Below, piece after piece: positions 1 through 64,000 of a DNA stretch of 64,000 bases. A program made the position numbers and the translations under genes. This DNA is from Squalus acanthias. Its lineage: Eukaryota. Below the pieces are notes generated by a model. That model saw nothing but the letters and a program-made list of their open reading frames with translations. It was not told the DNA's origin and did not search any database. Numbering within the stretch: the first letter of the stretch is position 1; every line of letters begins with the position of its first letter. The stretch is from assembly GCA_030390025.1 (NCBI GenBank), contig CM059432.1:62001-126000 (forward strand), read 5' to 3'.

Positions 1-37
1 TAGTGCCCCAAAATGGCCGATACCCAATTACTCCCCC

Positions 38-700
38 CGAGAGTCCATAAATTTCTCGATCTCAGCCTTGAATAAACTCAACGATTCAACATCCACAGCC
101 CTCTGGGGCAGAGAATTCCAGAGATTCACCACCCTCTGAGTGAAGAAATTTCTCCTCATCTCGATCTTAAATGGCCGACCCCTTATCCTGAGACTATGCC
201 CCCTAGTTCTAGACTCTCCAGCCAGGGGTAAACATCCTCTCAGCATCTACCCTGTCAATCCCCTTCAGAATCTTGTATGTTTCAATGAGAAAACCTCTCA
301 TTCTTCTAAACTCCAGAGAGTATAGGCCCATACTACACAATCTCTCAGCATAGGACAGCCCTCTCATCCCAGGAATCAATCTAGTGAACCTTCGTTGCAC
401 CGCCTCCAAGGCTAGTATATCCTTCCTTAGATAAGGAGACCAGAACTGTGCACAGTACACCAGGTGTGGTCTCACCAAGGCCCTGTACAATTATAGTAAG
501 ACTTCCTTATTCTAATTCTCCAACCCCCTTGCAATAAAGACCAACATGCCATTTGCTTGCTGTACCTGCATGCTAGCTTTCTGTGTTTCCTGTACGAGGA
601 CACCCAGATCTCTCTGAGCACCAACATTGAACAGTTTCTCACCATTTAAAAAAGATTCTGCTTTTCTATTCGTCCTAACAAAGTGAATAACCTCACATTG
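38..700 (-). mobile_element. CR1 LINE 3' fragment (degenerate)
   Basis: ORFs 28..246 and 209..490 carry CR1 ORF2 C-terminal motifs (LVRPHL.YC.QFWSP, RNFFTQRVVNLWNSLP). Confidence 0.85.
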
Positions 701-819
701 ATTATTAACCCTTAACTCTCCAGGATGTCCAACAGGGATTCTCTACGCCAGTCTCCCCGCCTCCCCCACCCCCCACTTTCGCAGCAGGTGGGCCACAGAA
801 GCTTGCCATCCATTTCCCC

Positions 820-1023
820 CTCACTTCCGCCTCACTTTCAAAAAGTCTTAATCGCGCCCGTATAAAGCTGGCCTCTGGGTTGCTAGACACTGCTCCGAAG
901 GTGGAAGAAATCTAAGGGGAAAATCTCTCAGACGCCTCCTTTCTCGGGTGACAGGCTCAAGTCTCATAACTCAGAACCCTGACACCGGGGATTAGCATCG
1001 AGATTCTTCTCTACGGAGTAAGA
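820..1023 (+). promoter_or_regulatory. Candidate promoter and non-coding first exon of actin-like copy 1
   Basis: TATAAAG at 861, CACTTCCG near 822, donor-like GGA|GTAAGA at 1017/1018, in non-repeat sequence upstream of the acceptor at 3482. Confidence 0.3.
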
Positions 1024-2590: not shown

Positions 2591-2740
2591 TCAGGAGTGA
2601 AGGTGAAGAGAGTCAGTGAACTGAGGAGTGAGAATCAGGCAGCTAAATGTTTAAATCTCATTGGTTGGCTGCCTCATGATCTCATATTTGGGTTGGAACC
2701 TCATGCTCTGGAAAGGCGGAGGGACGAGGAGGCGAAACAT

Positions 2741-3302
2741 AACATAAGAACATAAGAAGTAGGAGCAGGAGTCGGCCATACGACCCCTCGGGCCTGCTCC
2801 GCCATTCAATAGGATCATGGCTGATCCGAACCTAGACTCACGTCCACTTCCCTGCCCGCTCCCCATAACCCTTAATTCCCTTATCAGCTAGGAAACTGTC
2901 TCTCTCCGTTTTAAATTTATTTAATGTCGCAGCTTCCACAGCTCTCTCAGGTAGAAAATTACACAGATTTACTACCCTCTGAGTGAAGAAGTTTCTCCTC
3001 ATCTCAGTTTTGAAATGGCAGCCCCTTATTCTAAGATTATGCCCCCTAGTTCTAGTCTCCCCCATCAGTGGAAACATCCTCCCCGCATCCACCCGATCAA
3101 GCCCCCTCACAATCTTATATGTTTCGATAAGATCGCCTCTCATTCTTCTGTATTCCAATGAGTAGAGGCCCAACCTACTCAACCTTTCCTCATAAGTCAA
3201 CCCCCTCATCTCCGGAATCAACCGAGTGAAGCTTCTCTGAACTGCCTCTAGAGCAAGTATATATTTTCTTAAATATTGAAACCAAAACTGTACGCAGTAT
3301 TC
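2741..3302 (-). mobile_element. 5'-truncated CR1, unit-1-specific
   Basis: ORF 2838..3305 is a CR1 C-terminus. It is absent at the paralogous site (~39217) and flanked by CATA. Confidence 0.88.
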
Positions 3303-3492: not shown

Positions 3493-3615
3493 ATGGCGGC
3501 TGTGAGGGCAACCCTGGTTATGGACAATGGATCTGGAATAACTAAGGCCGGGTATGCAGGGGACGATGGTCCCTGTGTTTCTTTTCCCTCCGTCGTGGGG
3601 CGTCCTCAAGAACAG
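3493..3615 (+). CDS. Divergent actin-like protein copy 1, coding exon 1 (41 codons)
   Basis: [25 protein letters not shown]...GRPQEQ has the actin phosphate-1 motif. Kozak-like ACCATGG, upstream acceptor ttcctgcag (3482), donor CAG|GTGAGT at the conserved actin codon 41/42 position. Confidence 0.92.
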
Positions 3616-3991: not shown

Positions 3992-6634
3992 AGAAACATA
4001 GAAACAGAAAAATAGGAGCAGGAGTCGGCCATTCGGACCGTCGAGCCTGCTCCGCCATTCAATATGATCATGGCTGATCCTCTATCTCAATACCATATTC
4101 TCGCTCTCTCTCCATACCCCTTGATGCCTTTTGTGTCTAGAAATCTATCTATCTCTTTCTTAAATATATTCAGTGACTTGGCCTCCACAGCCTTCTGTGG
4201 TAGAGAATTCCACAGGTTCACCACCCTCTGAGTGAAGAAATTTCTCCTCATCTCAGTCCTAAATGTCCTACCCCATATCCTGAGACTGTGACCCCTCGTT
4301 CTAGACCCCCCAGCCAGGGGAAACATCCTCCCTGCATCCAGTCTGTCTAGCCCTGTCAGAATTTTATACGTTTCAATGAGATCCCCTCTCATTCTTCTAA
4401 ACTCTAGTGAATACAGGCCTAGTCGACCCAATCTCTCCTCATACGACAGTCCTGCCATCCCAGGAATCAGTCTGGTGAACCTTCGCTGCACTCCCTCTAT
4501 GGCAAGTATATCCTTTCTTAGGTAAGGAGACCAAAACTACACACAGTACTCCATGTGTGGTCTCACCAAGGCCCTGTACAACTGTAGTAAGACATCCTTG
4601 CTCCTGTACTCAAATCCTCTTGCAATGAAGGCCAACATGCCATTTGCCTTCCTAACTCCTTGCTGCACCTGCATGTTTGCTTTCAGTGACTGGTGTACAA
4701 GGACACCCAGGTCCCTTTGTACATCAGCATTTCCCAATCTATCACCATTTAAATAATACTCTGCCTTTCTGTTTTTCCTACCGAAGTGTATAACTTCACA
4801 TTTATCCACGTTATACTGCATCTGCCATGTATTTGCCCACTCACTCAACTTGTCTAAATCGTCTTGAAGCCTCTTTGCATCCTTCTCACAACTCACAATC
4901 CCACCTAGTTGCGTGTCGTCAGCAAACTTGGAAATATTACATCTGGTTCCCTCATCCAAATCATTGATATATATTGTGAATAGCTGGGGCTCAAGCACTG
5001 ATCCCTGCAGTACCCCACCAGTCACCGCCTGCCACCCCAAAAAAGACCCATTTATTCCTGCTCTCTGTTTCCTGTCTGTTAACCAATTTTCAATCCATGC
5101 CAGTATATTACCCCCAATACCATGTGCTTTAATTTTGCACACTAACCTCTTATGTGGGAATTTATCAAAGGCCTTCTGAAAATCCAAATACACCACATCC
5201 GTTGGTTCTCCGTTATCTAGTCTACCAGTTACATCCTCAAAAAAATCCAGTAGTTTTGTCAAACACGATTTCCCTTTCATAAATCCATGTTGACTTTGTC
5301 TAATCCCGTTGATATTTTCTAAGTGTCCTGTTATCACATCCTTCATAATAGACTCTAGCATTTTCCCTACTACTGATGTTAGGCTAACCGGTCTGTAGTT
5401 CCCTGTTTTCTCTCTCCCTCCTTTTTTAAATAGTGGGGTTACATTTGCCACCCTCCAATCTGCAGGAACTGTTCCATAGTCTATAGAATTTTGGAAGATG
5501 ACAACCAATACATCCACTATTTCCATGGCTACCTCTTTTAGTACTCTGGGATGCAGATTATCAGACCCTGGGGATTTATCAGCTTTCAGTCCCATTAATT
5601 TCTCCAGCACTATTTTTTTACTAATACTAATTTCCTTCACTTCCTCCTTCTCACTCGACCCTTGGTTCCCTCACATTTCTGGGAAGTTATTTGTGTCCTC
5701 TTCCCTGAAGACAGAACCAAAGTATTTGTTTAATTGCTCTGCCATTTCCTTGTATCCCATTATAAATTCTCCCGTTTCTGACTGTAAGGGACCTACATTT
5801 GTCTTCACTAATCTTTTTCTTTTTACATACTTGTAGAAGCTTTTAAAGTCCACTTTTATGTTCCTTGCAAGTTGACTCTCATACTCTATTTTTCCCCTCT
5901 TAATCAATCTCTTGGTCCTTTTTTGCTGAACTCTAAACTGCTCCCAATCCTCAGGCTTGCTACTTTTTCTGGCAACTTTATATGACTCCTCTTTGGATCT
6001 AATACTATCCTTAATTTCTTTTGTTAGCCATGGTTGGGCCACTTTTCCTTTTGTGTTTTTGCACCAGAAAGGAATGTATAACTTGCAATTCATGCATTCG
6101 TTCCTTAAATGTTAGCCATTGCCTATCCACCGTCATGCCTTTTAATGAAGCTCCCCAATCTATCATAGCCAACTCACTCCTCATACCTTCGTAGTTTCCT
6201 TTGTTTAGATTTAGGACCCTAGTTTCGGATTGAACTACTTCACTTTCCATTTTAATGAAGAATTCTATCATGTTATCATCACTCTTCCCTAAAGGACCCC
6301 GCACAACAAGATTATTAATTAACCCCTTCTCATTGCACAATACCCAAACTAGGATAGCCTGTTCCCTAGTTGGCTCCTCAACGTACTGGTCTAAAAAACA
6401 ATCTCGTACACACCCCAGGGATTCATCCTCCACAGTATTATTGCTAATTTGGTTTGGCCAGTCTATATGTAGATTAAAGTCTCCCATGATTACTGTAGTA
6501 CCCTTGTTACATGCATCTCTAATCTCCTGTTTGATGCCATCCCCAACATTACCACTACTGTTTGGAGGCCTATAGACAACTCCCACCAATGTTTTCTGCC
6601 CCTTGGTGCTTCTTAGCTCCACCCAGACTGATTC
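3992..6634 (-). mobile_element. 5'-truncated CR1 in the actin copy-1 intron (frameshifted ORF2), TSD TGTT
   Basis: Endonuclease and RT ORF pieces at 6011..6622, 5671..6093, 4537..5640 and 4087..4491. Empty site aacaTGTTggtc near 40645. Confidence 0.92.
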
Positions 6635-7019: not shown

Positions 7020-7830
7020 AAACCTCATCCTCGTTTTCAAATCTCTCCAGGGCCTCGCTCCTCCCTATCTCTGTACCCTCCTCCAGCCCCACAACCCTCC
7101 GAGATCTCTGCACTCCTCCAATTCTGGCCTCTTGAGCATCCCCCGATTTTAATCGCTCCACCATTGGCGGCCGTGTCTTCAGCTGACAAGGCCCTAAGCT
7201 CTGGAATTCCCTCCCTAAACCTCTCCGCCTCTCTTCTCCTTACTTGTGTCTTGTAGATGGTGGAAAGGTTTTGGGGAGTCAGGAGGTATCATCTCAGGCC
7301 TAAATAGCCAATCCCTTTATCCTGAGACTCTGCCCCCTAGTTCTAGACTCTCCAGCCAGGGGAAACAGCCTCCCAGCATCTACCCTTGGACGATTCAATG
7401 AGATCAGCTTTCAATCTTCTAAACTCCAGAGAATATAGGCCCATTCTATTCAATCACAGGACAGCCCTCTCATCCCATGAATCAATCTAGTGGACCTTCG
7501 TTGCACCTCCTCTTAGGCAAGTAAATCCTTCCTTGGGCAAGGAGACCAAGACTGTACACAGTACTCCAGGTGTGGTCTCACCAAAGCCCCATATAATTGC
7601 AGCAAGACTTCCTTACCCCCTTTCAATAAAAGCTAACATATCATTTGCCTTCCTAAATGCCTGCTGTATCTGCATGTTACCAACATTTACTCGTCTCTCA
7701 CCTTTTTATTCTATCTTTCTATTCTTCCTACCAAAGTGGATCATTTCCGATTCCCCCACATTATACTCCATCTGCCACCTTCTTGCCCAATCACTTAACT
7801 GCTCCATCCCCATATCCCTTGATTCCCTTA
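7020..7830. mobile_element. Old LINE fragments (L2-like piece ~7020-7235; degenerate minus-strand CR1 ~7290-7830)
   Basis: Degenerate similarity to other CR1 3' regions in the window. The L2 assignment is from recall. Confidence 0.5.
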
Positions 7831-8009
7831 ATGCCCAGAAACCACTAACCCTCGCTTTACAATGTACAGTGCTACTGAATCCTGACCCAAATCATTTCAG
7901 CCACAATGATACAAAAAATCGACTTGAATACAAATCTGGAGCATGTTTGTGTAAAACACTCCTGCCTGGTTTATTGTGAATTCATCCTTTGTTTTATTCC
8001 CCATTCTAG

Positions 8010-9005
8010 AGTGTGATGGTGGCAATGGGTCAGAAGGACAGTTATGTTGGTGATGAAGCCCAGAGCAAGCGAGGGATTCTGACCCTGAAGTACCCCATTG
8101 AGCACGGGATTGTGACCAACTGGGATGACATGGAGAAGATCTGGCACCACACCTTCTACAATGAGCTGCGAGTGGCCCCAGAGGAATATCCTGTTCTCCT
8201 CACAGAGGCACCTCTCAACCCCAAAGCCAACCGGGAAAAGATGGCCCAGATCATGTTTGAGACCTTCAACACATCGGCCATGTATGTTGCCATTCAAGCT
8301 GTGCTGTCCTTGTACGCCTCTGACCACACAACTGGCATTGTGCTAGATTCTGGTGATGGTGTGACCCACACTGTGCCAATCTATGATGGGTATGTCTTGC
8401 GTCATGGCATCCTGCAACTAGACCTGGCTGGCCGGCATCTCACTGACTACTTGAAGAAGATCCTGACTGAACGTGGGTATTCCTCAGCTGAGAGGGAGAT
8501 CGTGAGTGACATCAAGGAGAAACTTGCCTACGTGGCCCTAGATTTTGAATCTGAGTTGCAGACGGCTAGCTCTTCCTCATCCTTGGAGAAAAGTTACGAG
8601 CTCCCTGATGGCCAAGTAATCACCATCGGCAATGAGCGATTCATGTGCCCAGAAGCCCTCTTCCAACCCTCCTTCATTGGGCTAGATTCTGCTGGGATCC
8701 ACGAGACCTGTTACAACAGCATCATGAAATGTGACCTAGAGCTCAGGAAGGATCTGTATGCCAACACCGTCTTGTCTGGTGGTTCCACCATGTTCCCTGG
8801 TATGGCTGATCGGATGCAGAAGGAAGTCACAGCCTTGGCTCCGAGCACAATGAAGATTAAGATCATTGCTCCGCCCGAGAGGAAGTATTCAGTGTGGATC
8901 GGAGGATCCATCTTGGCTTGTCGCTCCAACTTCCAGCAAATGTGGATCAGCAAGCAGGAGTACGATGAGTCTGGGCCCTCTGTAATCCATCGCAAGAGGT
9001 TCTAA
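8010..9005 (+). CDS. Divergent actin-like protein copy 1, coding exon 2 (full protein 372 aa)
   Basis: Acceptor ccattctag|AGT in phase 0. Continuous [25 protein letters not shown]...[20 protein letters not shown], about 84% identical to beta-actin by manual count. Confidence 0.95.
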
Positions 9006-10199
9006 CATGCAGTAGGGATCAGAACTGATCCAGGCTTAGCCCGTTTAGAATATTACCATCAGTCTTAACTCTTACACCAATGATTCAAAATGTCTCTGCA
9101 TGTAGGCTCCTGGGACAGGAAGTGTTGGCTCTCTAATTCTATACCTTGATCCCAGGAGGTTTTTTAATCACAGAGTGGTGGGGGGAGATGGTGGAAAGCT
9201 TGCAGTCCTGGGTGTTGGGTATTTACAGGATAGTCATTTATCCAGACTTCCAAAACAAACTCGAGGAACAGGAAATACGGAGATATCTGATTAATATTGT
9301 TATTCATCAAGTCAATGATATACATCCCATTGCATGTAGTGCCCATGAGACTGGTACTGAACGTAACTCATGTGCAACGGACTCATCAGGAATGCAATAA
9401 GCACGACCTCTTGACACGTGCTAGATTTATCAAGACTAGGTCGAAGTATCTAAGGAGCGTGTTGTATCTTTTATAGAGTTAATCACATTGTCCTAGCGCG
9501 ATGCTATTACACGCTCTGCATATGTCTAGTTAATACTGGAGTACGTTAGCCTCCAACATCAGTGCATTGAGCCAGGTCCAGTATGTAATACCCTTCAGTG
9601 CGTCTGCGCAATATTCTCGATCTCTTGTTTGTTGCTCACTTTGCTTGGGAACGCATGGCGTGTCCTTCACTCCCTTTGGGACATCTCCATTCAGTCTTTG
9701 TATTTCATACTGTCTCCTGACCGTTGGACCTTATTCCTCGTACATTCCTTGTCTATTCCCCACAAACTGTTAGTGAGTAATGTCCGTTACCAGGCTCTGA
9801 AATCGTCCTGTCTGTGACCTCCGAAAACTACTTGGCCCAACCAGTCCGTGCCGGCGTTTATGCTCCACTCGAGCCTCCTCCCATCTTTCCTCATCTAACT
9901 ATCAGCGTAACCCTCGATTCCCTTCTCCCTCATATGCTTGTCCAGCCTCCCCTTAAATGCATCCATACTATTCGCTTCAACCACTCCCTGTGGGAGTGAG
10001 TTCCACATTCTCACCACTCTCTGGGTAAAGAAGTTTCTCCTGAATTCCCCAATGGATTTCTTGGTCAACGTTACAGGTTGCTTTGTGCAAAGCCCAATAC
10101 TGATCTAGGGTCAGACACGGTCACTCGTTCAGAAAGGCATCCCTCTCCTGACCAGTCAGTTCCTTGAACAAGGTGCTACATCAGTTGAATGCTTCTGAT

Positions 10200-10305
10200 G
10201 TTCATTGGCTGTCGTTCATTGGCTGTCGTTTATTGGCTGCCATTCATTGGCTGTCGTTCATTGTTTGCCGCTGATTGGTTGCTGCTAATTGGTTGCTGCT
10301 GATTG
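10200..10305. repeat. 14-bp tandem repeat rich in ATTGG (inverted CCAAT); shorter paralog ~50978-51055
   Basis: gttcattggctgtc / gctgattggttgct, about 7 units. Confidence 0.7.
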
Positions 10306-10900
10306 TTAAAGTTGCTGGAATTGCTTTGTGGAGCAGGAGGATTGGTTCAGTGCGAGCTACTCTTCTGATTGGCCAATTGACACTGAGTTGCCCCAGATGT
10401 CAGCAATCAATCTAAAATGAATCGAACAAATGTGCCCCCTTTTTGAAAGAGACACAAAATTATAAACACCCAAATTATCAATAAAACTAAGGAAACTCAG
10501 CAAATTAAACAAGGATATTGCGGGGGGGGGGGGTGGAATTTTAACCCCCCAAAATTTGGGCTGGGTTGGGATTGGGTGGGAGGTTAAAGTGTTAAAAACT
10601 GAATCTCGACCCCAACCCGCCTCCAATCCGCCCACTTCCGGTTTTAACAATTCGGGGCGGACAACCAACCCGCTCCCAGGAGACGGGTCGCCAATTTAAA
10701 TATTATAATGAGGCTGGCGTGCCTCAGATTTAACCACCATTTCAAATTTAACTCTGGCTGGTGGGATTTCTCAGGCCTCGGTGAATCCGCCGGCTAAAGT
10801 AAGGCGAGGACTGCTGGATCCAGGAGTTAAATGTCTCTACACTTACCTCCTGGATACAGCGTCGCTGCCTCACCCACACACCACAATCGGACACCCCCAC

Positions 10901-11115
10901 AAGGCCTGATCACCCCCCACGAGGCCTGATCACCCCCCACGAGGCCTGATCACCCCCCACGAGGCCTGATCACCCCCCACGAGGCCTGATCACCCCCCAC
11001 TAGGCCTGATCACCCCCCACAAGGCCTGATCACCCCCCACGAGGCCTGATCACCCCCCACGAGGCCTGATCACCCCCCACGAGGCCTCCGATTCCCCCCA
11101 CGAGGCCTCCGATTG
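10901..11115. repeat. 20-bp minisatellite (gaggcctgatcaccccccac) x9 plus variants
   Basis: Direct reading. It lies downstream of a MITE-like end ggggtggaattttaacccc (~10530). Confidence 0.95.
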
Positions 11116-11344
11116 CCTTTCCAGACATCAGCAAATAGGGCCGGCCCTGTGGGGAACCCGTTCTCCTGGGTTTCCCCACCACTACCTCGACCCCCTCCTC
11201 CCCCGCCCCAGTCTCTCGGTGCCCACCAGTGGCTGAAGGCCTCTAGTGTGTTCCGTGCGATCTAACTTGTACCAAACTTCCACAGCTTCCCCCTTCAATC
11301 TTTACATTGGTACCCGTCTGACCAGTGAGATTTACTCTACCTGT

Positions 11345-11357
11345 CGCGCTCTCTCTC

Positions 11358-11403
<46 letters not shown>

Positions 11404-12086
11404 TCTCGCTCTCTATCTTTCTCACACACTCTCTCTCTCTCTCTCGCTCTCGCTCTCGCTCTCTCTCGCTCTCTCTCTCGCTCGCTCTCTCTCGCGCTCT
11501 CTCACTCTCGCACTCTCTCTCACACTCTCTCTCTCTCGCTCTCTCGCGCTCTCTCTCTCGCTCTCTCTCGCTCTCTCGCTCTCTCGCTCTCACTCTCACG
11601 CTCTCGCGGTCTCTCTCTCTCTCTCTCACTCTCTCTTGCGCTCTCTCTCGCGCTCTCTCTCTCACACACTCTCTCTCTCTCTCGCTCGCTCTCTCTCGCT
11701 CTCTCTCTCGCGCTCTCTCTCTCTCTTTCACACTCTCTCTCTTTCTCTCTCTCTCGCTCTCTCGCTCTCTTACTCTCTCGATCTCTCACTCTCTCTCTCT
11801 CACTCTCTCACGCTCTCACTCTCTCTCTGTCTCTCTGTCTCTCTGTCTCTCTCTCTCTCTCACTCTCGCTCTCTCGCTCTCGCTCTCTCGCTCTCTCGCT
11901 CTCAATAGCTCTCTCTCGCTCTCTCGCTCTCGCTCTCTCACTCTCTCTCTGTCTCTCTCTCTCTCTCTCACTCTCTCTCGCGCTCTCTGTCTCACACTCT
12001 CTCTCTCTCTGTCTCTCTCTCTCTCACTCTCACTCTCTCTCTCTCTCTCTCTCCCTCTCACACTCTCTCTCTCTCTCTCTCGCTCT
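11345..12086. repeat. Compound (CT)n/CTCG/CTCA microsatellite
   Basis: Direct reading; paralog 52128-52871. Confidence 0.97.
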
Positions 12087-14041: not shown

Positions 14042-14058
14042 TCAGTCTCTTTCAGCAT

Positions 14059-17685: not shown

Positions 17686-17740
17686 ATGTACAAAGGGACC
17701 TGGGTGTCCTTGTACACCAGTCACTGAAAGCAAACACAAA

Positions 17741-52140: not shown

Positions 52141-52176
<36 letters not shown>

Positions 52177-52871
52177 GCTCACTCTCTCTCGCTCTCTATC
52201 TTTCTCACACACTCTCTCTCTCTCTCTCTCGCTCTCGCTCTCGCTCTCTCTCGCTCTCTCTCTCGCTCGCTCTCTCTCGCGCTCTCTCACTCTCGCACTC
52301 TCTCTCACACTCTCTCTCTCTCGCTCTCTCGCGCTCTCTCTCTCGCTCTCTCTCGCTCTCTCGCTCTCACTCTCACGCTCTCGCGGTCTCTCTCTCTCTC
52401 TCTCACTCACTCTTGCGCTCTCTCTCGCGCTCTCTCTCTCACACACTCTCTCTCTCTCTCGCTCGCTCTCTCTCGCTCTCTCTCTCGCGCTCTCTCTCTC
52501 TCTTTCACACTCTCTCTCTTTCTCTCTCTCTCGCTCTCTCACTCTCTTACTCTCTCGATCTCTCACTCTCTCACTCTCTCACTCTCTCACGCTCTCACTC
52601 TCTCTCTGTCTCTCTGTCTCTCTGTCTCTCTCTCTCTCTCTCACTCTCGCTCTCTCGCTCTCGCTCTCTCGCTCTCTCGCTCTCAATAGCTCTCTCTCGC
52701 TCTCTCGCTCTCGCTCTCTCACTCTCTCTCTGTCTCTCTCTCTCTCTCTCACTCTCTCTCGCGCTCTCTGTCTCACACTCTCTCTCTCTCTGTCTCTCTC
52801 TCTCTCACTCTCACTCTCTCTCTCTCTCTCTCTCCCTCTCACACTCTCTCTCTCTCTCTCTCTCTCGCTCT

Positions 52872-54241
52872 TGTAAGCTTCGCAAAATTCCCCAGGAACT
52901 TGTATAGAACCCTAAAAAGTGTTGATTTTTTGATTTTTCATACGAATTTGGGATGATGGGACCTAAATGAAGTGATTTGAGGCCAAAACCTCAGTTTTGG
53001 ACATTTTTAAAGATCAGGGAAGAAAACCCCTGAGGAAAATGACTTTTGGATATAACTATTGGGAAAAACACCTTTCACAGACACAAGACAGGCTGCGGAG
53101 GGGTGTGGCGAGGCAGTGGACAGCTTTTGGCTTTGGGGCCCAGTCAAGCTGTCTGGAAATTGTTTGCACTGCAATCCAAGCAGGAGGAAGAGCCTCACCC
53201 AAAACCTCACAAACACATCCAAAATTGAATAATTCAAGACACCTTTTGAAAATCCCCAGTCAAGAAACCTAAAACGCGAGGACAATGCAAACTCCGATTA
53301 AGCAACAGATCGACAGGATGGAGCTAAACAAAACCAGTTAACACGCTGGTAAAGTCGTTACTGTTAACGAGGTCTTACAATGAGCAGGATTTGATTTGGT
53401 TTTGATAAGGCCACTTCAATTTAGTATAATTGAAGGCCCATCAAGCAGTTACAGCAGTTGAAGTTCTCCAGTAAAACAGTTCAAGTTCAACAGAATTGAA
53501 AACCTGTGTTGAACAGAGTTCAGACAAGCAGGCAGAAGGCAGTTTCCACAGTTCTGCAAGAAGGCAGTTCCACAGCTCGGAAGAAGACAGTTTAAACAGA
53601 AGTGAGAAGTCGCACAACACCAGGTTATAGTCCAACAGTTTTATTTGAAATCACAAGCTTTCGGAGCTGCTGCTCCTTCGTCAGGTGAAGTGAAGGAATA
53701 CGAATCGGCAAAGCATATAGAGACAGAGAACAGAATTTAAACAGAGGCAGAGTTACAGCAAGAAGTTCAACAAAGAAGGCCAACAACTTCACAAGCAGAC
53801 CGACACGCAAGAAGAAACCAGAGCGACTGCCTCAGTGACCATCGGACACCTCGCGGCAACAAGGGCCTTACCAAACCTTTTACTCAAAAGACTCTAAACC
53901 CTAACTCTCAACTGTCAAGGATTGGTTTGGTGAGCATTATCCCTGGTTCTCCAGAGTCCAACCGAGCTAGTGAAGTGGGATTGGGAGGGGTGAAGTATTC
54001 TCCTAATGTCATTTCCCTCGCTCGTACCGAAGTGTTCCCCACCTTTAGAGTGTTAAGAGTGTTTGTGTTGTGTTTTACTTCCTTGAATAAAAGTCAAAGT
54101 TCTTACATCAGAACCTGTTGTCTACTGCACCTTTGTTCACAACCCCCAAATAAGTCCAAGGTCTAGAACCAGGGGCGTGGGAGCGATTCGAACCGCTCAC
54201 TGAGTCAGAGGTGAGGCTGACCCCCCACACCACCCCCTAAA
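52872..54241 (+). mobile_element. Solo LTR, unit-2 copy (terminal CA mutated to AA), between CT microsatellites
   Basis: Near-identical to 12087-13456. Confidence 0.7.
53651..53688 (-). ncRNA. Minimal type-I hammerhead ribozyme, unit-2 copy
   Basis: Identical motif to 12866-12903. Confidence 0.75.
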
Positions 54242-54842
54242 CTCTCTCTCTCTCTCTCTCTCTCTCACTCACACTCTCTCTCTCTCTCTCGCTCTCTCAC
54301 TCTCTCTCTCTCGCTCACACTCTCTCTCTCGCTCTCGCTCTCTCTCTCACACTCACACTCTCTCTCTCTCTCTCTCTCGCTCTCTCTCTCACACTCTCTC
54401 TCTCATTCTGTCTCTCTCTCTCACTATCTCGCACATTCTCTCTCTCTCACTCTCTCTCTCTCACTCTTTCACTCTCTCTCTCTCACTCTGTCTCTCTATC
54501 TCACTCTCTCTCACATTCTCTCTCTCACTCACTCTCTCACACTCTAACTCTCTCTCACTCTCTCACTCTCACTCTCTCTCTCACACACTCTCTCTCTCAC
54601 TCTCACACTCTTGCTCTCTTTCGCTCTCACACTCTCTCTCTCACACTCTCTCTCACACACTCTTTCTCACACTCTCCCTTTCACACTCTCTCTCTCTCTC
54701 TCTTACACTCTCTCTCTCACACACTCTCTCTTTCACACTCTCTCACTCTCTTTCTCACACTCTCTTTCTCACACTCTCTCTCTCACGCGCTCTCTCTCTC
54801 ACACTCTCTCTCCCACACTCTCTGTCAGTCTCTTTCAGCATT

Positions 54843-55380
54843 ACTGAGGGAGCGCCGCACTGTCGGAGGGGCAATACTGAGGGAGAGCCGCACTGTCGGA
54901 GGGGCAGTACTGAGGGAGGGCTGCACTGTCGGAGGGGCAGTACTGAGGGAGCGCTGCACTGTCTGAGAGGCAGTACAGTGGGAGAGCCGCACTGTCGGAA
55001 GGGCAGTACTGAGGGAGCGCCGCACTGTCGGAGGGGCAGTACTGAGGGAGCGCCGCACTGTCGGAGGGGCAGTACTGAGGGAGCGCCGCACTGTCGGAGG
55101 GGCAGTACTGAGGGAGCGCCGCACTGTCGGAGGGGCAGTACTGAGGGAGAGCTGCACTGTCGGAGGGGCAGTACTGAGGGAGCGCTGCACTGTCGGAGGG
55201 GCAGTACTGAGGGAGCGCGGCACTGTCGGAGGGTCTGTACTGAGGGAGCGCTGCACTGTTGGAGGGGCAGTACTGAGGGAGCGCCGCACTGTCGGAGGGG
55301 CAGTACTGAGGGAGTGCTGCACTGTCGGTGGGGCAGTACTGAGGGAGCGCCGCACTGTCGGAGGGGCAGTACTGAGGGAG
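54843..55380. repeat. 33-bp minisatellite, ~16 copies
   Basis: Paralog of 14059-14597. Confidence 0.95.
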
Positions 55381-57110
55381 TTCTTCTTCTTCTTAGGCAG
55401 TCCCTCGGAACCGAGGATGACTTGCTTCCACACTAAAAATAAGTTCTCAGGTGACTGATGAATCCAATGTGGGACCTACAGTCTTTGTCACAGGTGGGGC
55501 AGACGGTGGTTGAAGGGGTGGGTGGGTGGGGTACTTGGGATGACGTGCGCTGTTTGCTCCCGGTGAAGAGAGTCGAGGTGTTCGACGCCTTCCCGGATGC
55601 TTCTCCTCCACTTTGTGCGGTCTTGGGCCAGGGATTCCCAGGTGTCGGTGGGGATGTTACACTTTTTCAAGGAGGCTTTGAGGGTGTTCTTGAAGCATTT
55701 TCTCGGTCCACCTGGGGCTCTCTTGCCGTGTCGGAACTCCGAGTAGAGCGCTTGTTTTGGGAGTCTCGTATCGGGCATGCGGACGATGTGACCCATCCAT
55801 CGGAGCTGATCGAGCGTGGTCAAAGCTTCGATGCTGGGGATGTTGGCCTGAGCGAGAACACTGACGTTGGTGCGCCTATCCTGCCAATGGATTTGCAGGA
55901 TCTTGCAGAGGCAGCGTTGGTGGTATCTCTCCAGTGCTTTGAGGTGCCAGCTGTCCATGGTCCATGTCTCTGAGGCATACAGGAGGGCGGGTATCACTAC
56001 TGCTCTGTAGACCATGAGCTTAGTGTCGGGTTTGAGGTCCTGGTCTTCAAACACTCTCTTCCTCCGGGGACAAAGGCTGCACTAGCACACTGAAGGCGGG
56101 GTTGGACTTCGTCATCGATGTCTGCCCTTGTTGAGGGAGTGCAGCGAAGATTCACCAGACTGATACCTGGGATGGCAGGAATGACGTATGAAGAGAGATT
56201 GGGACGATTAGGCTTATATTCGCTAGAGTTTAGAAGAATGAGAGGGGATCTCATTGAAACTTATAAAATTCTAACAGGACTAGACAGACTAGATGCAGGA
56301 AGGATGTTCCCGATGGCGGGGGAGTCCAGATCCAGGGGTCACAGTCTAAGGATAAGGGGTAAGCCATTTAGGACTGAGATGAGGATGAATTTCTTCACCC
56401 AGAGAGTGTTGAAACTGTGAAATTCTCTATCACATAAGGCAGTTGAGGCCAATTCATTAAATATATTCAAGAAGGAGTTAGATATATTTCTTAAGGCTAA
56501 AGGGATCAAGGGATATGAGGAGAAAGCAGGGACAGGGTACTGAATTTGGATGATCAGCCATGATCTCATTAAATGGAGGAGCAGGCTCGAGGGGCCGAAT
56601 GGCCTACTCCTGCTCCTATCTTCTATGTTGACAGTAGGCTCCCAAGGTATGGAAAGTGGTCCACGTTGTCCAAGGCCTCGTCATCGATTTTGATAATCGG
56701 GGGGCAGTACTGTGTAGCAGGGGCAGGTTGGTAGAGGACCTTTGTCTTACAGATGTTTAGTGTAAGGCCCATGCTCTCGTACGCTTCGGTGAAGGTGTTA
56801 ATGCTGGTTTGGAGTTCGGCCTCAGAGTGAGCGCAGACGCAAGCATCGTCTGCATACTGTAATTCGATGACAGAGGATGGGACGACCTTGGATCTGGACT
56901 GGAGGCGACGGAGGTTGAACAGTTTCCCGTTTGTTCTGTAGATTAGCTCCACTCCAGCGGGAGCTTACTGAGGGTGTGTTGGAGCATTGCAGCCAGGAAT
57001 ATCGAGAAGAGCATTGTGCGATGGCACAGCCTTGCTTGACCCCGGTCCGTACGTGAATTGGGTCTGTGGTAGATCCGTTGGTCAGGATCACGGCTTGCAT
57101 GTCATCGCGA
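55381..57110 (-). mobile_element. RTE LINE 3' part with nested CR1 fragment, unit-2 copy
   Basis: ORFs 55488..56054 and 56623..56952 (LQYADD). Confidence 0.88.
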
Positions 57111-58523
57111 GGGTTAGCCTAACATCAGTAGTAGAGAAAATGCTAGAGTCTATTCTAAAGGATGTGATAACAGGACACTTAGAAAATATCAACGGGATTA
57201 GACAAAGTCAACATGCATTTATGAAAGGGAAATTGTGTTTGACAAACCTACTGGAGTTTTTTGAGGATGTAACTGGTAGAATAGATAAAGGAGAAACAGT
57301 GGATGTGGTGTATTTGGATTTTCAGAAGGTCTTTGATAAAGTCCCACATAAGAGGTTCGTGTGCAAAATTAAAGCACATGGGATTGGGGTAATATACTGG
57401 CATGGATTGAAAATTGGTTAACAGACAGGAAACAGAAAGTAGGAATAAATGGGTCTTTTTCGGGGTGGCAGGCGGTGACTAGTGGGGTACCGCAGGGATC
57501 AGTGCTTGGGCCCCAGCTATTCACAATATATATCAATGATTTGGATGAGGGAACCAAATGTAATAGTTCCAAGTTTGCTGACGACATGAAACTAGGTGGG
57601 ATTGTGAGTTGTGAGGAGGATGCAAAGAGGCTTCAAGGCGATTTAGACAAGTTGAGTGAGTGGGCAAATACATGGCAGATGCAGTATAACGTGGATAAAT
57701 GTGAAGTTATCCACTTCGGTAGGAAAAGCAGAAAGGTAGAGTATTATTTAAATGGTGATAGATTGGGAAATGCTGATGTACAAAGGGACCTGGGTGTCCT
57801 TGTACACCAGTCACTGAAAGCAAACATGCAGGTGCAGCAAGCAATTAGGAAGGCAAATGGCATATTGGCCTTCATTGCAAGAGGATTTGAGTACAGGAGC
57901 AAGGATGTCTTACTACAGTTATACATGGCCTTGGTGAGACCACACCTGGAGTACTGTGTCCAGTTTTGGTCTCCTTACCTAAGTAAGGATATACTTGCCA
58001 TAGAGGGAGTGCAGCGAAGGTTCACCAGACTGATTCCTGGGATGGCAGGACTGTCCTATGAGGAGAGATTGGGTCGAGTAGGCCTGTATTCACTAGAGTT
58101 TAGAAGAATGAGAGGGGATCTCATTGAAACGTATAAAATTCTGACAGGGCGAGACAGACTGGATGCAGGGAGGATGTTTCCCCTGGCTGGGGGGGTCTAG
58201 AACGAGGGTTCACAGTCTCAGAATACGGGGTAGGACATTTAGGACTGAGATGAGGAGAAATTTCTTCACTCAGAGGGTGGTGAACCTGTGGAATTCTCTA
58301 CCACAGAAGGCTGTGGAGGCCAAGTCACTGAATATATTTAAGAAGGAGATAGATAGATTTCTAGACACAAAATGCGTCAAGGGGTATGGGGAGAGAGTGG
58401 GAATATGGTATTGAGATAGAGGATCAGCCATGATCATATTGAATGGCGGAGCAGGCTGGAACGGTCGAATGTACAAAGGGACCTGGGTGTCCTTGTACAC
58501 CAGTCACTGAAAGCAAACACAAA

Positions 58524-61500
58524 TCCCGAGACTCGAGGCCCAGACCGAGCTATTGGGAGCAGCAGTGAGAGCGGACCGACCTGTGAGGGAACAGGCAAAG
58601 GAGGAGCGAGGAAATAAAGCCTGAGGCTCGAGGCCCAGACCGAGCTATTGGGAGCAGCAGCGAGAGTGGACCGACCTGTGAGGGAACAGGCGAAGGAGGA
58701 GCGAGGAATTAAAGCCTGAGGCTCGAGGCCCAGACCGAGCTATTGGGAGCAGCAGCGAGAGCGGACCGACCTGTGAGGGAACAGGCGAAGGAGGAGCGAG
58801 GAAATAAAGCCTGAGGCTCGAGGCCCAGACCGAGCTATTGGGAGCAGCAGCGAGAGCGGACCGACCTGTGAGGGAACAGGCGAAGGAGGAGCGAGGAAAT
58901 AAAGCCTGAGGCTCGAGGCCCAGACCGAGCTATTGGGAGCAGCAGCGAGAGTGGACCTCAACAGGCAACATTCGAAAGTGACGTCAGAGATTAAAAGTGA
59001 CGTCGGCACAAGGGAAGGAGCTGATTGGTCAGTAGGACCTGGTGAGTATTTCTACAGCCCAGTGGTTAAAGTAAAAGTAAGGTCTCTAATTTAGAGTAAG
59101 TAGTGTTTAAAGTGAAGTAAGGTCACTAATGTATTTAATATTCTTTAATTTATAGGAAGTAAAGGGAGTAAATTAAGGGTAGGACATGGCAGGGCAGCTC
59201 GGCAGCATGGAGTGCTCCTCCTGTGCTATGTGGGAAGTCACGGACACTTTCGGTGTCCAGGGTGAACACTTGTGTAGGAAGTGTCTCCAGCTGCAGCTAC
59301 TCAAAATCCACGTTTCGGAGCTGGAGCTGCTGCTGGAGTCACTGTGGAGCATCCGCGAAGCTGAGATCTTCATGGATAGCACGTTTAACGAGGTGGTCAC
59401 ACCGCAGGTAAAGAGTGCACAGGCAGAAAGGGAATGGGTGACTGCCAGACAGAGTAAAAGAACTAGGAAGGTAGTGCGGGATTCCCCTGGGTCCCTCTCC
59501 CTCTCCAACAGATTTTCCGTTTTGGATACTGCTGGGGGAGATGGTTTCTCAGGGGAATGCAGCAAGAGCCAAGTCCGTGGCACTACGAGTGGCTCAGCTG
59601 CACAGGAGGGGAGGAAAAAGAGTGGGAGAGCAATAGTGATAGGGGATTCTATCGTAAGGGGAACAGATAGATGTTTCTGTGGCCGCAGACGTGACTCCAG
59701 GATGGTATGTTGCCTCCCTGGTGCCAGGGTCAAGGATGTCACTGAGCGGCTGCAGGACATTCAGAAGGGGGAGGGTAAACAGCCAGAGGTCGTGGTCCAT
59801 ATCGGTACCAATGACATAGGTAGAAAGAGGGATGAGGTCCTGCAAGCAGAATATAGGGAGCTAGGAAATAAATTAAAAAGCAGGACCTCAAAGGTAGTAA
59901 TCTCAGGATTACTCCCAGTGCCACGTGCTAGCGAGAGCAGAAATAGGAGAATAGACCAGATGAATGCGTGGCTGGAGAGATGGTGTAGGAGGGAGGGATT
60001 TAAATTCCTGAGGCATTGGGACCGATTCTGGGGAAGGTGGGACCTGTACAAGCTGGACAGGTTACACCTCGGCAGAAACGGGACCAACATCCTCGCAGGG
60101 GGGTTTGCTAGTGCTGTTGGGAAGGATTTGAACTAGTTTGTCAGGGGGCTGGGAGCCTAAGTGTGAGCCCAGAACGGAGAGAAACAAAGCTGGAAGTGCA
60201 AGTTAGAAAAGTACTCAGCAAAACTAGTAGGGAGCAGAAACAAAGGCCAACAGTAAAGAGGGACAAAGTGCAGAAAAATATTAAACAGGCAAAGTTGAAG
60301 GCACTTTATCTAAATGCACGTAGCATTTGCAACAAGGTGGATGAATTAATGGCATTAATAGAAGTAAATGGGTATGATGTAATTGCCATTACAGAGACAT
60401 GGTAGCAGGGTAACCAAAGCTGGGAACTGAATGTTCCAGGGTACTCAACATTTAGGAAGGACAGACAAAAAGGAAAAAGAGGTGGCGTAGCGCTGTTAAT
60501 AAGGGATGAGATCGGTACGGTAGAGATAAAAGATCTTGGCTTTGCAGATCGTGATGCAGAACTGGAATCAGTTTGGGTGGAGCTAAGAAACAGCAAAGGG
60601 CGGAAAACATTGGTGGGAGTTGTGTATAGGCCACCAAACAGTAATGGTAATGTAGGGCACAGTATCAATCAAGAGATTAGAAGTGCATGTAACAAGGGCA
60701 ATACGGTAATCATGGGGGACTTTAATCTACATATTGACTGGGCAAATCAAATTACCACTAATGGTGTGGAGGACGAATTCTTGGAATGCATGCAAGATGG
60801 TTTCCTGGATCAGTATGTGGAGGAACCAACCAGGGAACAGGTTATTCTGGATCTGCTACTGTGTAATGAGAAAGGGCTAATCAATAATCTTGTGGTAAAG
60901 GAGCCTTTAGGGACAAGTGACCATAATATGATTGAATTTTACATTAAGTTTGAGAGTGATGTCGTCCAATCTGAAACTAAGGTCTTCAATCTAAACAGAG
61001 GAAACTACAAGGGTATGAGGGACAAGTTGGCCATGATAGATTGGGAGTCTACACTAAAAGGTATGAAGGTGGACATACAATGGCTAACATTCAAGGAAAT
61101 AATGCATAATTTGCAACAAACATATATTCCTCTAGGGCATAAAAACCCAAAAGGAAAAGTGATCCAACCATGGCTAACAAAAGAAATTAAAGCTAGTATT
61201 AAGTCAAAGGAGGAAGCTTATAAAGTTGCCAGAAAAAGCAGTCAGCCTGAGGATTGGGATCTTTTTAGAAATCAGCAAAAGGGGGAGCAAGAAATTGATA
61301 AAGAAAGGGAAAATGGAATATGAGCACAATCTAGCGAAAAATATAAAAACAGATTGTAAAAGCTTCTATAGGTATGTGAAAAGGAAAAGACTGGCGAAGG
61401 TAAATGTAGGTCCTTTACAGTCAGAGACGGGAGAATTTATAATGGGGAATGAGGAAATGGCAGTGAAATTCAATAAATACTTTGTTTCTGTCTTCACGGA

Positions 61501-63165
61501 GTCAGACACAAAAAACCTCCCAGAAATACGAGAAAATCAAGGGTGTGACGAGAATGAGGAACTTAAAGAAATTATTAGTAAAAAAACAGTACTAGCAAAA
61601 TTAATGGGACTAAAAGTCGATAAATCCCAAGGACCGGAAGACCTATTTCCTAGGGTTTTGAATGAGGTGGCCATTGGAATGGTGGACGCATTGGTTGTCA
61701 TCTTCCAAAATTCTATAGATTCTGGAACGGTTCCTGCAGATTGGAGGATAGCAAATGTAACCCCGCTTTTTAAGAAAGGAGGGAGAGAGAAAACGGGGAA
61801 CTACAGACCTGTTATAAAGGATGCAATAATTGGGCACTTAGAAACTAATAGTAAGATTGGGCAGAGTCAACATGAATTTATGAAAGGGAAATCCTGTTGG
61901 ACAAACCTATTGGAGTTCTTTGAGGATGGAATTAGTGGAGAAGACAAAGGGGAACCAGTAGATGTGGTGTATCTGGATTTTCAGAAAGCCTTCGATAAGG
62001 TCCCACACAAGAGGTTGGTGAACAAAATTAGGGCACATGGAATTGGGGGTAATATAATAGCATAGATTGAGAATTGGTTAACAGATAGAAAACAAAGAGT
62101 AGGGATAAACGAGTCTTTTTCAGGATGACAGGCTGTGACTTGTGGGGTACCGCAAGGATCAGTGCTTGGGCCCCAGCTATTCACAATCTATATCAATCAT
62201 TTGGATGAGGGGACTAAATGTAACATTTCCAAATTTGCTGATGATACAAAGCTAGGTGGCAGTGTCAGTTGCGAAGAGGATGTGAAGAGGCTTCAAGGGG
62301 ATCTCGACAGGTTCAGTGAGTGGGCGAGAACATGGCAGATGGAATATAATGTGGATAACTGTGAAGTTATCCACTTTGGTAGAAAAAACAGAAAGGCAGA
62401 GTATTTCCTAAATGGTGAAAGATTGGGGAATGCAGATGCTCAAAGGGACCTGGGTGTCCTTGTACATGAGTCATTGAAAGTGAATGTGCAGGTGCAGCAA
62501 ACCATTAGGAAGGCAAATGGTATGCTGGCCTTCATTACAAGAGAATTTGAGTACAGGAGTAAAGAAGTCTTACTCCAATTATATAGGGCCTTGGTGAGAC
62601 CACACCTGAAGTACAATGTACAATTTTGGTCTCCTTACCTAAGGAAGTATATACTAACCATAGAGGGAGTGCAACGAAGGTTCACGAGATTGATTCCTGG
62701 GATGGCGGGACTGTCGTATGAGAAGAGATTGAGTAAACTAGGCCTTTATTCTCTTGAATTCAGAAGAATGAGAGGGGATCTCATTGAAGCATACAAAATT
62801 ATTACAGGGCTTGATAGGGTGGATGCTGGGAGAATGTTTCGCTTGGCTGGGAGTCTAGAACCAGGGGCCACAGCCTTAGGATAAAGGGTAGGCCATTCAG
62901 GACTGAGATGAGAAGAAATGTCTTCACACAGAGGGTGGTGAATCTTTGGAATTCTCTACCCCAGAGGGCTGTGGAGGCTCAGTCATTGGGTATATTCAAA
63001 ACAGACGTCGATAGATTTCTGACTAGTAAGGGCATCAAGGGATATGGCGATAGGGCCGCTGAATGGAGTTGAGGCAGAAGATCAGCCATGATCTCATTGA
63101 ATGGCGGAGCAGGCTCGAAGGGCCGAATGGCCGACTCCTGCTCCTATTTTTCTATGTTTCTATGT
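58524..63165 (+). mobile_element. Near full-length CR1: 95-bp monomers (58524-58956), intact ORF1, ORF2 disabled by stops and frameshifts
   Basis: ORF2 broken into 60163..60405, 60577..61323, 61226..62065 and 62135..62884; (tctatgtt)n tail. Confidence 0.9.
59186..60136 (+). CDS. CR1 ORF1p (zinc finger and SGNH esterase), 316 aa
   Basis: GDS, HIGTND, DRLH; paralog of 18403..19353. Confidence 0.88.
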   Translation: MAGQLGSMECSSCAMWEVTDTFGVQGEHLCRKCLQLQLLKIHVSELELLLESLWSIREAEIFMDSTFNEVVTPQVKSAQAEREWVTARQSKRTRKVVRDSPGSLSLSNRFSVLDTAGGDGFSGECSKSQVRGTTSGSAAQEGRKKSGRAIVIGDSIVRGTDRCFCGRRRDSRMVCCLPGARVKDVTERLQDIQKGEGKQPEVVVHIGTNDIGRKRDEVLQAEYRELGNKLKSRTSKVVISGLLPVPRASESRNRRIDQMNAWLERWCRREGFKFLRHWDRFWGRWDLYKLDRLHLGRNGTNILAGGFASAVGKDLN

Positions 63166-63597
63166 TTTAATGATACTTCCCTTAAACAAGAGTTCCTGAC
63201 CGACCTGTTCTTCAATCCTTTCAGGAGTTTTATGAAGAGTCACTTATTTCTTTGCAGAAGCATCTCTCATAGAGAATACTCAGACATTTGGAGCAGAAGA
63301 TAAGACATGCTTTCCCTGCCGCACCCCCGCTGCTATCCTGTTCACCTCGGAAAGCCAGTTGCTCCGAGCCACAAGGAAGTTCGATTATTAAGAACATAAG
63401 AATTAGGAGCAGGAGTCGGCCATTCGGCCCCTCGAGCCTGCTCCGCCATTTAATGAGATCATAGCTGATCTTTGACCTCAACTCCACTTTCCCGCCTGAT
63501 CTCCATATCCCTTTGATTCCCTTAGGGGCCAAAATTCGGTTGGTTGGCGCCTCGTGTTAGAGCCTCTGGGGGGCGCTAACAGGGCGCTAGGAACTAA

Positions 63598-64000
63598 GGG
63601 TAAAAATTCACTTGGTTGCGCCTCCCGTTAGCGCCTTAAGAGGGCGCTAATGGGGCGCAAAGCCGCTAACGCCCGTGCGCAGCGATGTTTGTGCCGCTCG
63701 AGAACTTAACTTGAGATTGTGCGGCGGCGCTAAAACTTACCGCTGCGACCACCTGCGCGCGCAGATTGTGACGTCATTCCATGGTGCAACGCCCTTGGGG
63801 CGCCCCGTAGCGGAAATTGAGTGGCGCCCCCTGCCTTACCGCCTGGCGCTTCCAACGACCAGAAGACTGGAACGCTATCAATCGCTGTGGGGCTGGGGGG
63901 GGCGCTATTTAAAGGGGGCCTCTTCCGGTCTTTTATTGTTGGTGGCATTTTTGAACTACGCATTCTGAGAGAGAGAGGGAGAGACTTCTGGAGAGATTCA
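63598..64000. mobile_element. End of a second Harbinger copy (transposase-side terminus), nested in the Harbinger derivative starting at 63525
   Basis: Reverse-complement match to ~29240-29636; starts taa|gggtaaaaattca; truncated by the window end. Confidence 0.85.

What the first reader, a model, noticed from the sequence alone, without database searches (positions are those of the whole stretch)
1..64000. ~32 kb tandem array whose only recognisable host gene is the actin-like gene
Two consecutive units fill the window, and both ends fall inside the same Harbinger derivative, so more units may flank it. Both gene copies keep ORFs and splice sites while many TE insertions landed in introns and spacers and none in exons. 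This is consistent with selection on a multicopy gene.
Basis: partly seen in the sequence, partly recalled or inferred. Interest (0 to 1): 0.7.

Follow-up and report, generated by a model that had tools for sequence, protein, structure and literature searches.

The report
Shark tandem array of drifting actins
The window holds two of eight neighbouring copies of an unusual one-intron actin gene at the end of a shark chromosome-scale contig; six copies have open reading frames, but their proteins differ about as fast as silent DNA, so this is likely a once-specialised actin relaxing after amplification rather than a tightly conserved multicopy gene.

Summary
The window is C8:62-126 kb of a 3.7 Gb shark genome. 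It holds copies 2 and 3 of eight tandem copies (class T; ATG spacing 13-37 kb) of a 372-aa, one-coding-intron actin. Six copies are intact, one lost exon 2, and one runs into an assembly gap. T derives from six conserved neighbours (class U). T has a remodelled N-terminus, a 3-residue deletion and no TATA box. Its exon 2 was likely homogenised with U (four-fold sites differ 5%, against 50% in exon 1). That no insertion hit a coding exon is expected by chance (P 0.6-0.7). Among T copies pN/pS is 0.82 (U: 0.08), and changes hit conserved sites at random, whereas changes fixed before amplification avoid them. Frames stay open more often than drift predicts (P 0.0004-0.05). An apparent positive-selection signal is reproduced by neutral simulations with gene conversion (4 of 24). 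Expression is untested. The scan noted this one-intron actin lineage before, in another genome.

The parts
1..37 (-). End of an old ~760-bp Harbinger-type MITE (C8:61274-62037) marking the T1/T2 unit boundary
2704..2715 (+). T2: position of the TATA box of the U paralogs, here TGGAAA instead of TATAAA/TATAAG (same in all 8 T copies)
2742..3302 (-). CR1-type 3' fragment inserted about 30 bp downstream of the TATA-equivalent; shared by T2, T6, T8
3493..3615 (+). T2 coding exon 1 (41 codons; remodelled, non-acidic N-terminus); acceptor-like AG at 3481-3482, donor GT at 3616
3992..6634 (-). CR1-type LINE in the T2 intron (shared by T2, T4, T6 in part, T7)
8010..9005 (+). T2 coding exon 2 (331 codons + stop); lacks actin residues 200-202
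7236..19410 (+). 12.2-kb block duplicated at 48014-60193 (170 mismatches in 12129 aligned bases, patchy: 0-28 per 500)
19411..24108 (.). T2-specific nest of CR1-type LINE pieces
25402..29636 (.). Full-length Harbinger-type DNA transposon, only in unit T2: DDE_Tnp_4 transposase 27964-29196 (-), Myb/SANT ORF 25741-26253 (+), TIRs, 3-bp TTT target-site duplication
31680..32484 (-). Old Harbinger-type MITE marking the T2/T3 unit boundary (88.8% to the one at the window start)
33509..38550 (-). Near full-length CR1-type LINE (980-aa ORF at 33528-36470) with a 69-bp minisatellite, upstream of T3 only
39181..39192 (+). T3: TATA-equivalent position (TATA lost)
39222..39964 (.). 743-bp MITE with terminal inverted repeats, inserted independently within a few bp of the T2 CR1 site
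40150..40272 (+). T3 coding exon 1
41245..48013 (.). Nested LINE block in the T3 intron (shared in part by T1, T5, T8)
48788..49783 (+). T3 coding exon 2
48014..60193 (+). Second copy of the 12.2-kb block
63589..64000 (+). Start of a young ~900-bp Harbinger-type MITE (runs to window-equivalent 64489), nested in the old MITE

Best explanation
Eight tandem copies of a divergent one-intron actin gene sit at the end of a shark chromosome-scale contig, and they likely arose by unequal crossing-over from a once-specialised gene whose protein constraint has since largely relaxed, leaving mainly selection to keep the frame open. Steps: (1) Shown: T groups with the six conserved U copies next to it, and its upstream DNA is collinear with U1. 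(2) Inferred: in the single-copy ancestor exon 1 was remodelled (14 fixed amino-acid changes and a deletion in 41 codons; acidic N-terminus lost), which cut it off from gene conversion. Exon 2 kept exchanging sequence with U. The 26 fixed changes avoid conserved sites, so this ancestor was a working protein. (3) Shown: the unit was multiplied and units swelled or shrank by transposon insertion and deletion. Inferred: by unequal exchange, since intron insertions group T2 with T4/T6/T7 while its 3' half groups with T3. (4) Shown: since then exon 2 has changed at about the silent rate and without regard to conservation; one copy lost exon 2. (5) Predicted: the proteins keep the nucleotide-binding core but would polymerise and bind myosin poorly. 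Whether and where they are expressed is untested.
For: Copy map. T+U clade 100/100, T clade 100/100. T1-U1 upstream 83% against 63-70% for shuffled controls. Four-fold sites T3-U3: exon 1 9/18, exon 2 6/126 (p<1e-5), while comparisons with V give 19-32% in both exons. Branch dN/dS: background 0.074, T stem 0.96, T crown 0.86, crown not different from 1 (p=0.49). By exon: exon 2 stem 0.49 and crown 0.90; exon 1 stem 1.19 and crown 0.31. Tree-free counts: T 66 nonsynonymous/25 synonymous alleles, U 7/28. Fixed changes at highly conserved sites: 19% vs 62% expected (n=26, p<1e-4); copy-variable changes: 64% vs 62% (n=69, p=0.65). Incompatible site pairs: 18% observed vs 3% in simulations without conversion. 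No stop or frameshift in 6 of 6 complete copies, expected 3.0-7.8. T6 has an internal deletion of exon 2.
Against: Amino-acid changes are mildly clustered (permutation p=0.035-0.065, 0.04) and enriched in published polymer-contact segments (14 of 69 vs 8.3 expected, p=0.034). Exon 2 differs more between copies (4.0%) than its 700-bp flanks (1.5%). These points lean towards diversifying selection. Loss of the TATA box, no AATAAA/ATTAAA within 700 bp of the stop, and insertions at the presumed start site in 4 of 8 copies lean towards silence. The open-frame test is only p=0.05 if the near-flank rate is the right neutral yardstick.
Confidence: 0.55

Rival explanations
1. The T copies are an expressed, probably germline, family of non-canonical actins diversifying under positive selection at filament- and partner-binding surfaces, with a fixed new N-terminus as the targeting part.
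For: A site-mixture model favours about 12% of codons at dN/dS about 5 in the crown (LRT 11.3). Polymer-contact enrichment p=0.034. Changes cluster at residues ~160-190 and ~268-290. Several residues changed to two different states. Exon 1 is nearly invariant among copies (2/88 vs 64/731 nonsynonymous alleles per site, p=0.036). The catalytic core is intact in all six. Precedent: Drosophila and mammalian non-canonical Arps (PMC7038667 abstract; PMC8291977 passages).
Against: Neutral simulations with matched gene conversion reach the observed T-only LRT (9.3) in 4 of 24 runs, and in 3 of 43 runs with 40% constrained sites; 0 of 25 without conversion. The tree-free count shows no excess of multi-hit codons (4 vs 5.5 expected). 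Variable changes do not avoid conserved or nucleotide-binding sites. The enrichment tests are several and uncorrected. There are no expression data.
Confidence: 0.22
2. The T copies are no longer expressed. They are young pseudogenes whose frames are still open by chance, helped by conversion among copies.
For: dN/dS is about 0.9. Changes occur at near-invariant residues (G156C and H73R in T4/T7; W340L, P243R, P332L, D179H in single copies). The TATA box is lost in 8 of 8, insertions lie at the presumed start site in 4 of 8, and there is no canonical poly(A) signal within 700 bp. T6 is truncated. No sequencing run held more than 13% of the sampled words.
Against: 0 disruptions where 3.0-7.8 are expected (P 0.05-0.0004). 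The splice sites seen are intact in all copies. The 180 bp upstream of exon 1 vary at only 2 of 180 sites vs 3.5-11% elsewhere. Shared variants are slightly conservative (BLOSUM p=0.02). The TATA loss is fixed in all copies, so it predates amplification.
Confidence: 0.16
3. One reading: a multicopy gene held by purifying selection (dosage), with transposons purged from exons.
For: Six intact frames; exon 1 is conserved. This reading does fit the neighbouring U class (dN/dS about 0.08; four copies with identical protein).
Against: T copies differ at up to 43 nonsynonymous positions per pair. pN/pS is 0.82. Exon avoidance is expected by chance.
Confidence: 0.04
4. Assembly artefact: haplotypes or contigs mis-joined into a false tandem array.
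For: The array ends at a 500-N gap (C8:235070-235569) and lies at the contig end. One 3.3-kb segment is 99.4% identical between T3 and T6. No reads were laid.
Against: There are eight distinct copies, more than two haplotypes allow. Far flanks differ by 2.0-4.0%. Copies carry private insertions. There is no N from C8:1 to 235069.
Confidence: 0.03

Closest known systems
Vertebrate cytoplasmic actins (ACTB, ACTG1; avian 'cytoplasmic type 5')
   Same: Best solved-structure hits include cytoplasmic actins. The intron at codon 41/42 is shared with the genome's canonical four-intron cytoplasmic actin on C24. U begins MADDEIAAL, like C24 and close to avian type 5.
   Different: One coding intron instead of four. 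T is only 83-85% identical to the C24 actin (U 96-97%), has lost the acidic N-terminus and residues 200-202, and is multicopy with dN/dS near 1.
Non-canonical, testis-biased actin-related proteins (Drosophila Arp53D and obscura-group Arps; mammalian testis Arps)
   Same: A lineage-restricted, fast-evolving actin-fold paralog with a distinctive N-terminus (PMC8291977 passages; PMC7038667 abstract).
   Different: T is far closer to actin, its N-terminus is altered rather than extended, and it is tandemly amplified. Positive selection is not established and expression is unknown.
ACTBL2 and the fish ACTBL2-like lineage
   Same: A 376-aa cytoplasmic-type actin lineage with intron loss; PMC7870945 (section 5 and passages) reports similar sequences in cartilaginous fishes, with introns kept in fishes.
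   Different: Not at the mammalian site: GPBP1-like and PLK-like genes sit together on C2 (65.4 and 66.2 Mb) with no actin hit between them (human gene order recalled). Orthology by tree was not tested.
Birth-and-death multigene families with coding-region gene conversion
   Same: Tandem copies, a truncated member (T6), a stop-containing member (V3), mosaic alleles, and exons more alike than their flanks.
   Different: Here one exon escaped homogenisation and the other did not, giving a gene whose two exons have different histories.

Membership tests
Conventional cytoplasmic actin (ACTB/ACTG1) | Near-invariant protein with acidic N-terminus | tested here: not met
   T is 83-85% identical to the canonical C24 actin; the N-terminus is non-acidic
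Conventional cytoplasmic actin (ACTB/ACTG1) | Coding introns at about 41/42, 121, 267, 327 | tested here: not met
   Only the first is present in T, U and V; all four are present in the C24 gene
Actin superfamily (ATP-binding actin fold) | Phosphate loops and catalytic residues D11, G13, S14, G15, K18, Q137, D154, D157, G158, H161, K213, E214, K336 | tested here: met
   All are intact in 6 of 6 complete T copies; G156C and H73R occur in T4/T7, R177Q in T2/T3, and R210 is changed in all
Non-canonical germline Arps | Derived from actin, lineage-restricted, accelerated evolution | tested here: met
   dN/dS 0.86-0.96 vs 0.074. No T-type relative among 7 hits or the best 120 hits; this is weak evidence because the database is clustered at 90%
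Non-canonical germline Arps | Positive selection | tested here: inconclusive
   LRT is significant on its face but reached by neutral-plus-conversion simulations in 4 of 24 runs
Non-canonical germline Arps | Male-germline expression | not tested
   No run held more than 13% of the sampled words; no reads were laid
Actin epsilon 1 (Acte1) | Located beside DHCR7 (human ACTE1P lies about 0.01 Mb from DHCR7, PMC8743587 passages) | tested here: not met
   ERG4/ERG24-family hits are on C9, C10, C27 and C28, none on C8; the NAD synthase search found nothing
ACTBL2 | Intronless gene between GPBP1 and PLK2 (gene order recalled) | tested here: not met
   T has one coding intron; GPBP1-like and PLK-like hits are on C2, C15, C18 and C19, not C8
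Avian cytoplasmic type 5 actin | Multi-intron gene; two database isoforms skip residues ~85-122, implying exon borders there | tested here: not met
   T, U and V have no intron in that stretch; synteny was not tested

The most novel reading that the evidence does not exclude
A vertebrate has amplified a remodelled near-actin into a subtelomeric array of at least eight copies that share a fixed new N-terminus, while their bodies diversify under positive selection at filament-contact surfaces. This would be a germline (or conflict-driven) actin variant family caught early, at about 85% identity to true actin, born as a chimera by exon-limited gene conversion.
Probability: 0.2. Interest if true: 0.7.

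Novelty: new variant of a known kind. Interest (0 to 1): 0.4.

Why it matters
Actin is among the most constrained proteins, and vertebrate non-canonical actins are usually too diverged to show how they left that constraint. This locus has three stages side by side on one chromosome: conserved U and V copies, a remodelled T ancestor, and eight T descendants. It gives a readable case of how one exon can escape concerted evolution and how constraint changes after amplification. If T proves expressed and positively selected, it would be a vertebrate counterpart of the Drosophila germline Arp bursts. If not, it is a clean example of birth-and-death evolution.

Tried and rejected
Exon avoidance as proof of selection: rejected (P 0.58-0.71 for 9 insertions, 0.16-0.39 for 25-30). 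Uniform 32 kb period: rejected. Positive selection from the site-mixture likelihood test: not accepted, because it is reproduced by neutral simulations with conversion and not seen tree-free. A neighbour-clustering test for recombination was not significant (p=0.29), so conversion among T copies rests on the level of incompatibility and on the insertion mosaics, not on mapped tracts. Synonymous and nonsynonymous T-U differences do not co-cluster, so surviving old-T patches are not shown. Identity as Acte1, ACTBL2 or type 5: not met by synteny or gene structure. Protein searches for T orthologs in other sharks found none. The exon-1 query had only 10 candidates, and the exon-2 query was swamped by ordinary and double actins at up to 85% identity; neither shows absence. 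Rfam gave no hits. No telomere-repeat run was found in C8:1-520000, so 'subtelomeric' means only 'at the contig end'. Literature searches listed no paper whose title or abstract start describes a shark one-intron actin array; the library lacks most subscription journals, supplements were not read, and the 2019 vertebrate actin synteny paper was seen only as cited in PMC7870945. No structure or complex was predicted.
Full report
Setting. The window is G000:C8:62001-126000 in a 3.71 Gb genome; C8 is 154 Mb long. A large exon 35 Mb further along C8 is 89% identical to a Pristiophorus japonicus NAC-alpha-domain protein and 72-79% to Heterodontus, Cetorhinus and Scyliorhinus proteins. The host is therefore a shark, probably squalomorph (inference).

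Observation. Self-alignment shows two related units. Collinear pairs cover 57% of the window; the largest is 7236-19410 vs 48014-60193 (97.8%), with identity patchy along it. The rest is unit-specific insertion: CR1-type LINEs, a full Harbinger (transposase DDE_Tnp_4 and Myb/SANT ORF by Pfam; TTT target-site duplication), and MITEs. Each unit has one gene of two coding exons, spliced GT-AG at codon 41/42, giving 372 aa. The window starts in an old MITE and ends in a younger one nested at the same site. About 32 kb is right between these markers, but gene spacing along the array is 13-37 kb.

The family. Genome searches and 520 kb of fetched DNA give three classes on C8, all with the same single coding intron. 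Class T has eight exon-1 copies at 35.8-228.2 kb, six of them complete and open; T6 has lost exon 2 by deletion, and T8 runs into a 500-N gap about 5 kb before its expected exon 2, so more copies may be hidden. Class U has six copies at 273-487 kb, 376 aa, 96-97% identical to the canonical four-intron cytoplasmic actin on C24. Class V has four copies at 35.17-35.25 Mb beside the NAC-alpha-domain gene; V1 is divergent and V3 has a stop. T is 83-85% identical to the C24 actin. T and U form one clade (100/100; 17 rows, V3 and the partial T copies left out), and the T upstream region is collinear with U1.

Two exons, two histories. At four-fold degenerate sites T3 differs from U3 at 9 of 18 in exon 1 but 6 of 126 in exon 2 (p<1e-5). 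Against V both exons differ by 19-32%. Non-coding DNA upstream is about 83% identical between T1 and U1. Exon 2 is thus far closer to U than its surroundings are, which is best read as exon-limited gene conversion that exon 1 escaped (inference). U copies show the same pattern: U1 and U3 are about 81% alike upstream but 97.5% alike over exon 2.

Selection. My codon model (14 sequences; V1, V3, T6, T8 left out) gives dN/dS 0.074 for U/V, 0.96 for the T stem and 0.86 among T copies, the last not different from 1. By exon, the stem is 1.19 (exon 1) and 0.49 (exon 2), and the crown 0.31 and 0.90; none differs significantly from 1 on its own. Counting alleles without a tree, T has 66 nonsynonymous and 25 synonymous, U 7 and 28. 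Against 162 aligned actin stretches, the 26 changes fixed in T avoid highly conserved sites (19% vs 62% expected), while the 69 copy-variable ones do not (64% vs 62%). So the ancestor was shaped under constraint and the copies largely are not. Yet no stop or frameshift occurs in six complete copies, where 7.8 are expected at the synonymous rate (P 0.0004) or 3.0 at the near-flank rate (P 0.05) (indel ratio).

Positive selection? A site mixture favours a class at dN/dS about 5 (LRT 11.3). Exon 2 differs more between copies (4.0%) than its near flanks (1.5%) and about as much as far flanks (3.4%). Variable changes are enriched in polymer-contact segments as listed in PMC7247664 (passages read): 14 of 69 vs 8.3, p=0.034, uncorrected. 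But 18% of informative site pairs are incompatible, against 3% in simulations without conversion. With matched conversion, neutral simulations reach the observed T-only LRT of 9.3 in 4 of 24 runs (3 of 43 with 40% constrained sites; 0 of 25 without conversion). Multi-hit codons are not in excess. The signal is suggestive only.

Predicted protein. The phosphate loops and catalytic Q137/H161 are intact in all six; T4 and T7 carry G156C and H73R. All T lack the acidic N-terminus, which PMC7247664 describes as essential for myosin binding. All carry R39Q and H40E (the residues that contact the H-plug in that paper), lack residues 200-202, and have lost C374. Most also change the W-loop, the H-plug and residues 348-351. 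Poor polymerisation and myosin binding are predicted, not shown; the filament role of residues 200-205 is recalled.

Promoter. All six U copies have a TATA-like box; all eight T copies have TGGAAA at that position. In T2, T6 and T8 a CR1 fragment, and in T3 independently a MITE, sit about 30 bp downstream of it, at the presumed start site. T has no AATAAA/ATTAAA within 700 bp of the stop; U2 and U3 have one within about 200 bp, while U1's first is at about 800 bp. This fits either a TATA-less promoter or silence, and the two window copies may be among the less functional ones. Expression remains untested: the run search gave only shares of 0.13 or less.

Relation to known genes. T is not ACTB/ACTG1 (structure, identity), not at the Acte1 site (PMC8743587 passages), not at the ACTBL2 site, and not built like avian type 5. 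PMC7870945 (section 5 and passages) notes ACTBL2-like, intron-containing actins in fishes including cartilaginous fishes; whether U/V are these was not tested. In behaviour T resembles non-canonical Arps (PMC7038667 abstract; PMC8291977 passages), but germline expression is untested and positive selection inconclusive. Earlier scan notes describe a tandem one-intron actin lineage in another genome and treat V1 and a regulatory element near the U copies; these are unchecked AI notes. Nine literature searches listed nothing on this array.

Verdict. This is a real birth-and-death actin array with a chimeric exon history and relaxed constraint after amplification: a new variant of a known kind, interest 0.4. 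The adaptive reading has about a one-in-five chance and would deserve 0.7.

Noticed in passing
G000:C8:273-487 kb (L053, L062, L071-L074): Six conserved one-intron U actins; four in a ~9-kb tandem repeat encode identical proteins, and exons are far more alike than their flanks (coding-limited homogenisation).
   Followed up: partly
G000:C8:35.167-35.249 Mb (L079-L087): Four one-intron V actins beside a NAC-alpha-domain gene with a 2636-codon exon: one strongly divergent (V1, 70% to canonical actin), one with an internal stop (V3).
   Followed up: partly
window 2741 and 39221: Two unrelated transposons inserted independently within a few bp of each other at the presumed transcription start of T copies; possibly an open-chromatin hotspot in the germ line.
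   Followed up: partly
L032:5100 to L033:2400 (G000:C8 about 15-22 kb): LTR retroelement in several ORF pieces with protease, RT, two RNase H-type domains, integrase and an SH3-like tail by Pfam, followed by unassigned ORFs.
   Followed up: no
G000 C16:13.71 Mb, C5:24.17 Mb, C3:131.72 Mb, C2:194.27 Mb, C1:127.45 Mb (2 genes), C19:17.36 Mb (2 genes), C919, C685: A set of long single-exon actin-like matches at 40-66% identity; C5 appears frameshifted near residue 119. They may correspond to testis-type Arps.
   Followed up: no
G000:C10:13.61 Mb (L101): Divergent multi-exon actin fragments about 3.5 Mb from an ERG4/ERG24-family gene on C10; a candidate for Acte1.
   Followed up: no
L077:4179-4427 and 8362-8640 (G000:C8 514-519 kb): RIO-kinase exons: the first non-actin host gene recognised inward of the T and U arrays.
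   Followed up: no
window 25402-29636: Harbinger-type transposon with an open 410-codon transposase frame, a Myb ORF, TIRs and target-site duplication; more than ten related MITEs lie in the surrounding 520 kb.
   Followed up: partly
G000:C22:36.592 Mb (L100): Short actin fragment ending in a stop, resembling the U/T exon 2; an apparent dispersed pseudogene piece.
   Followed up: no
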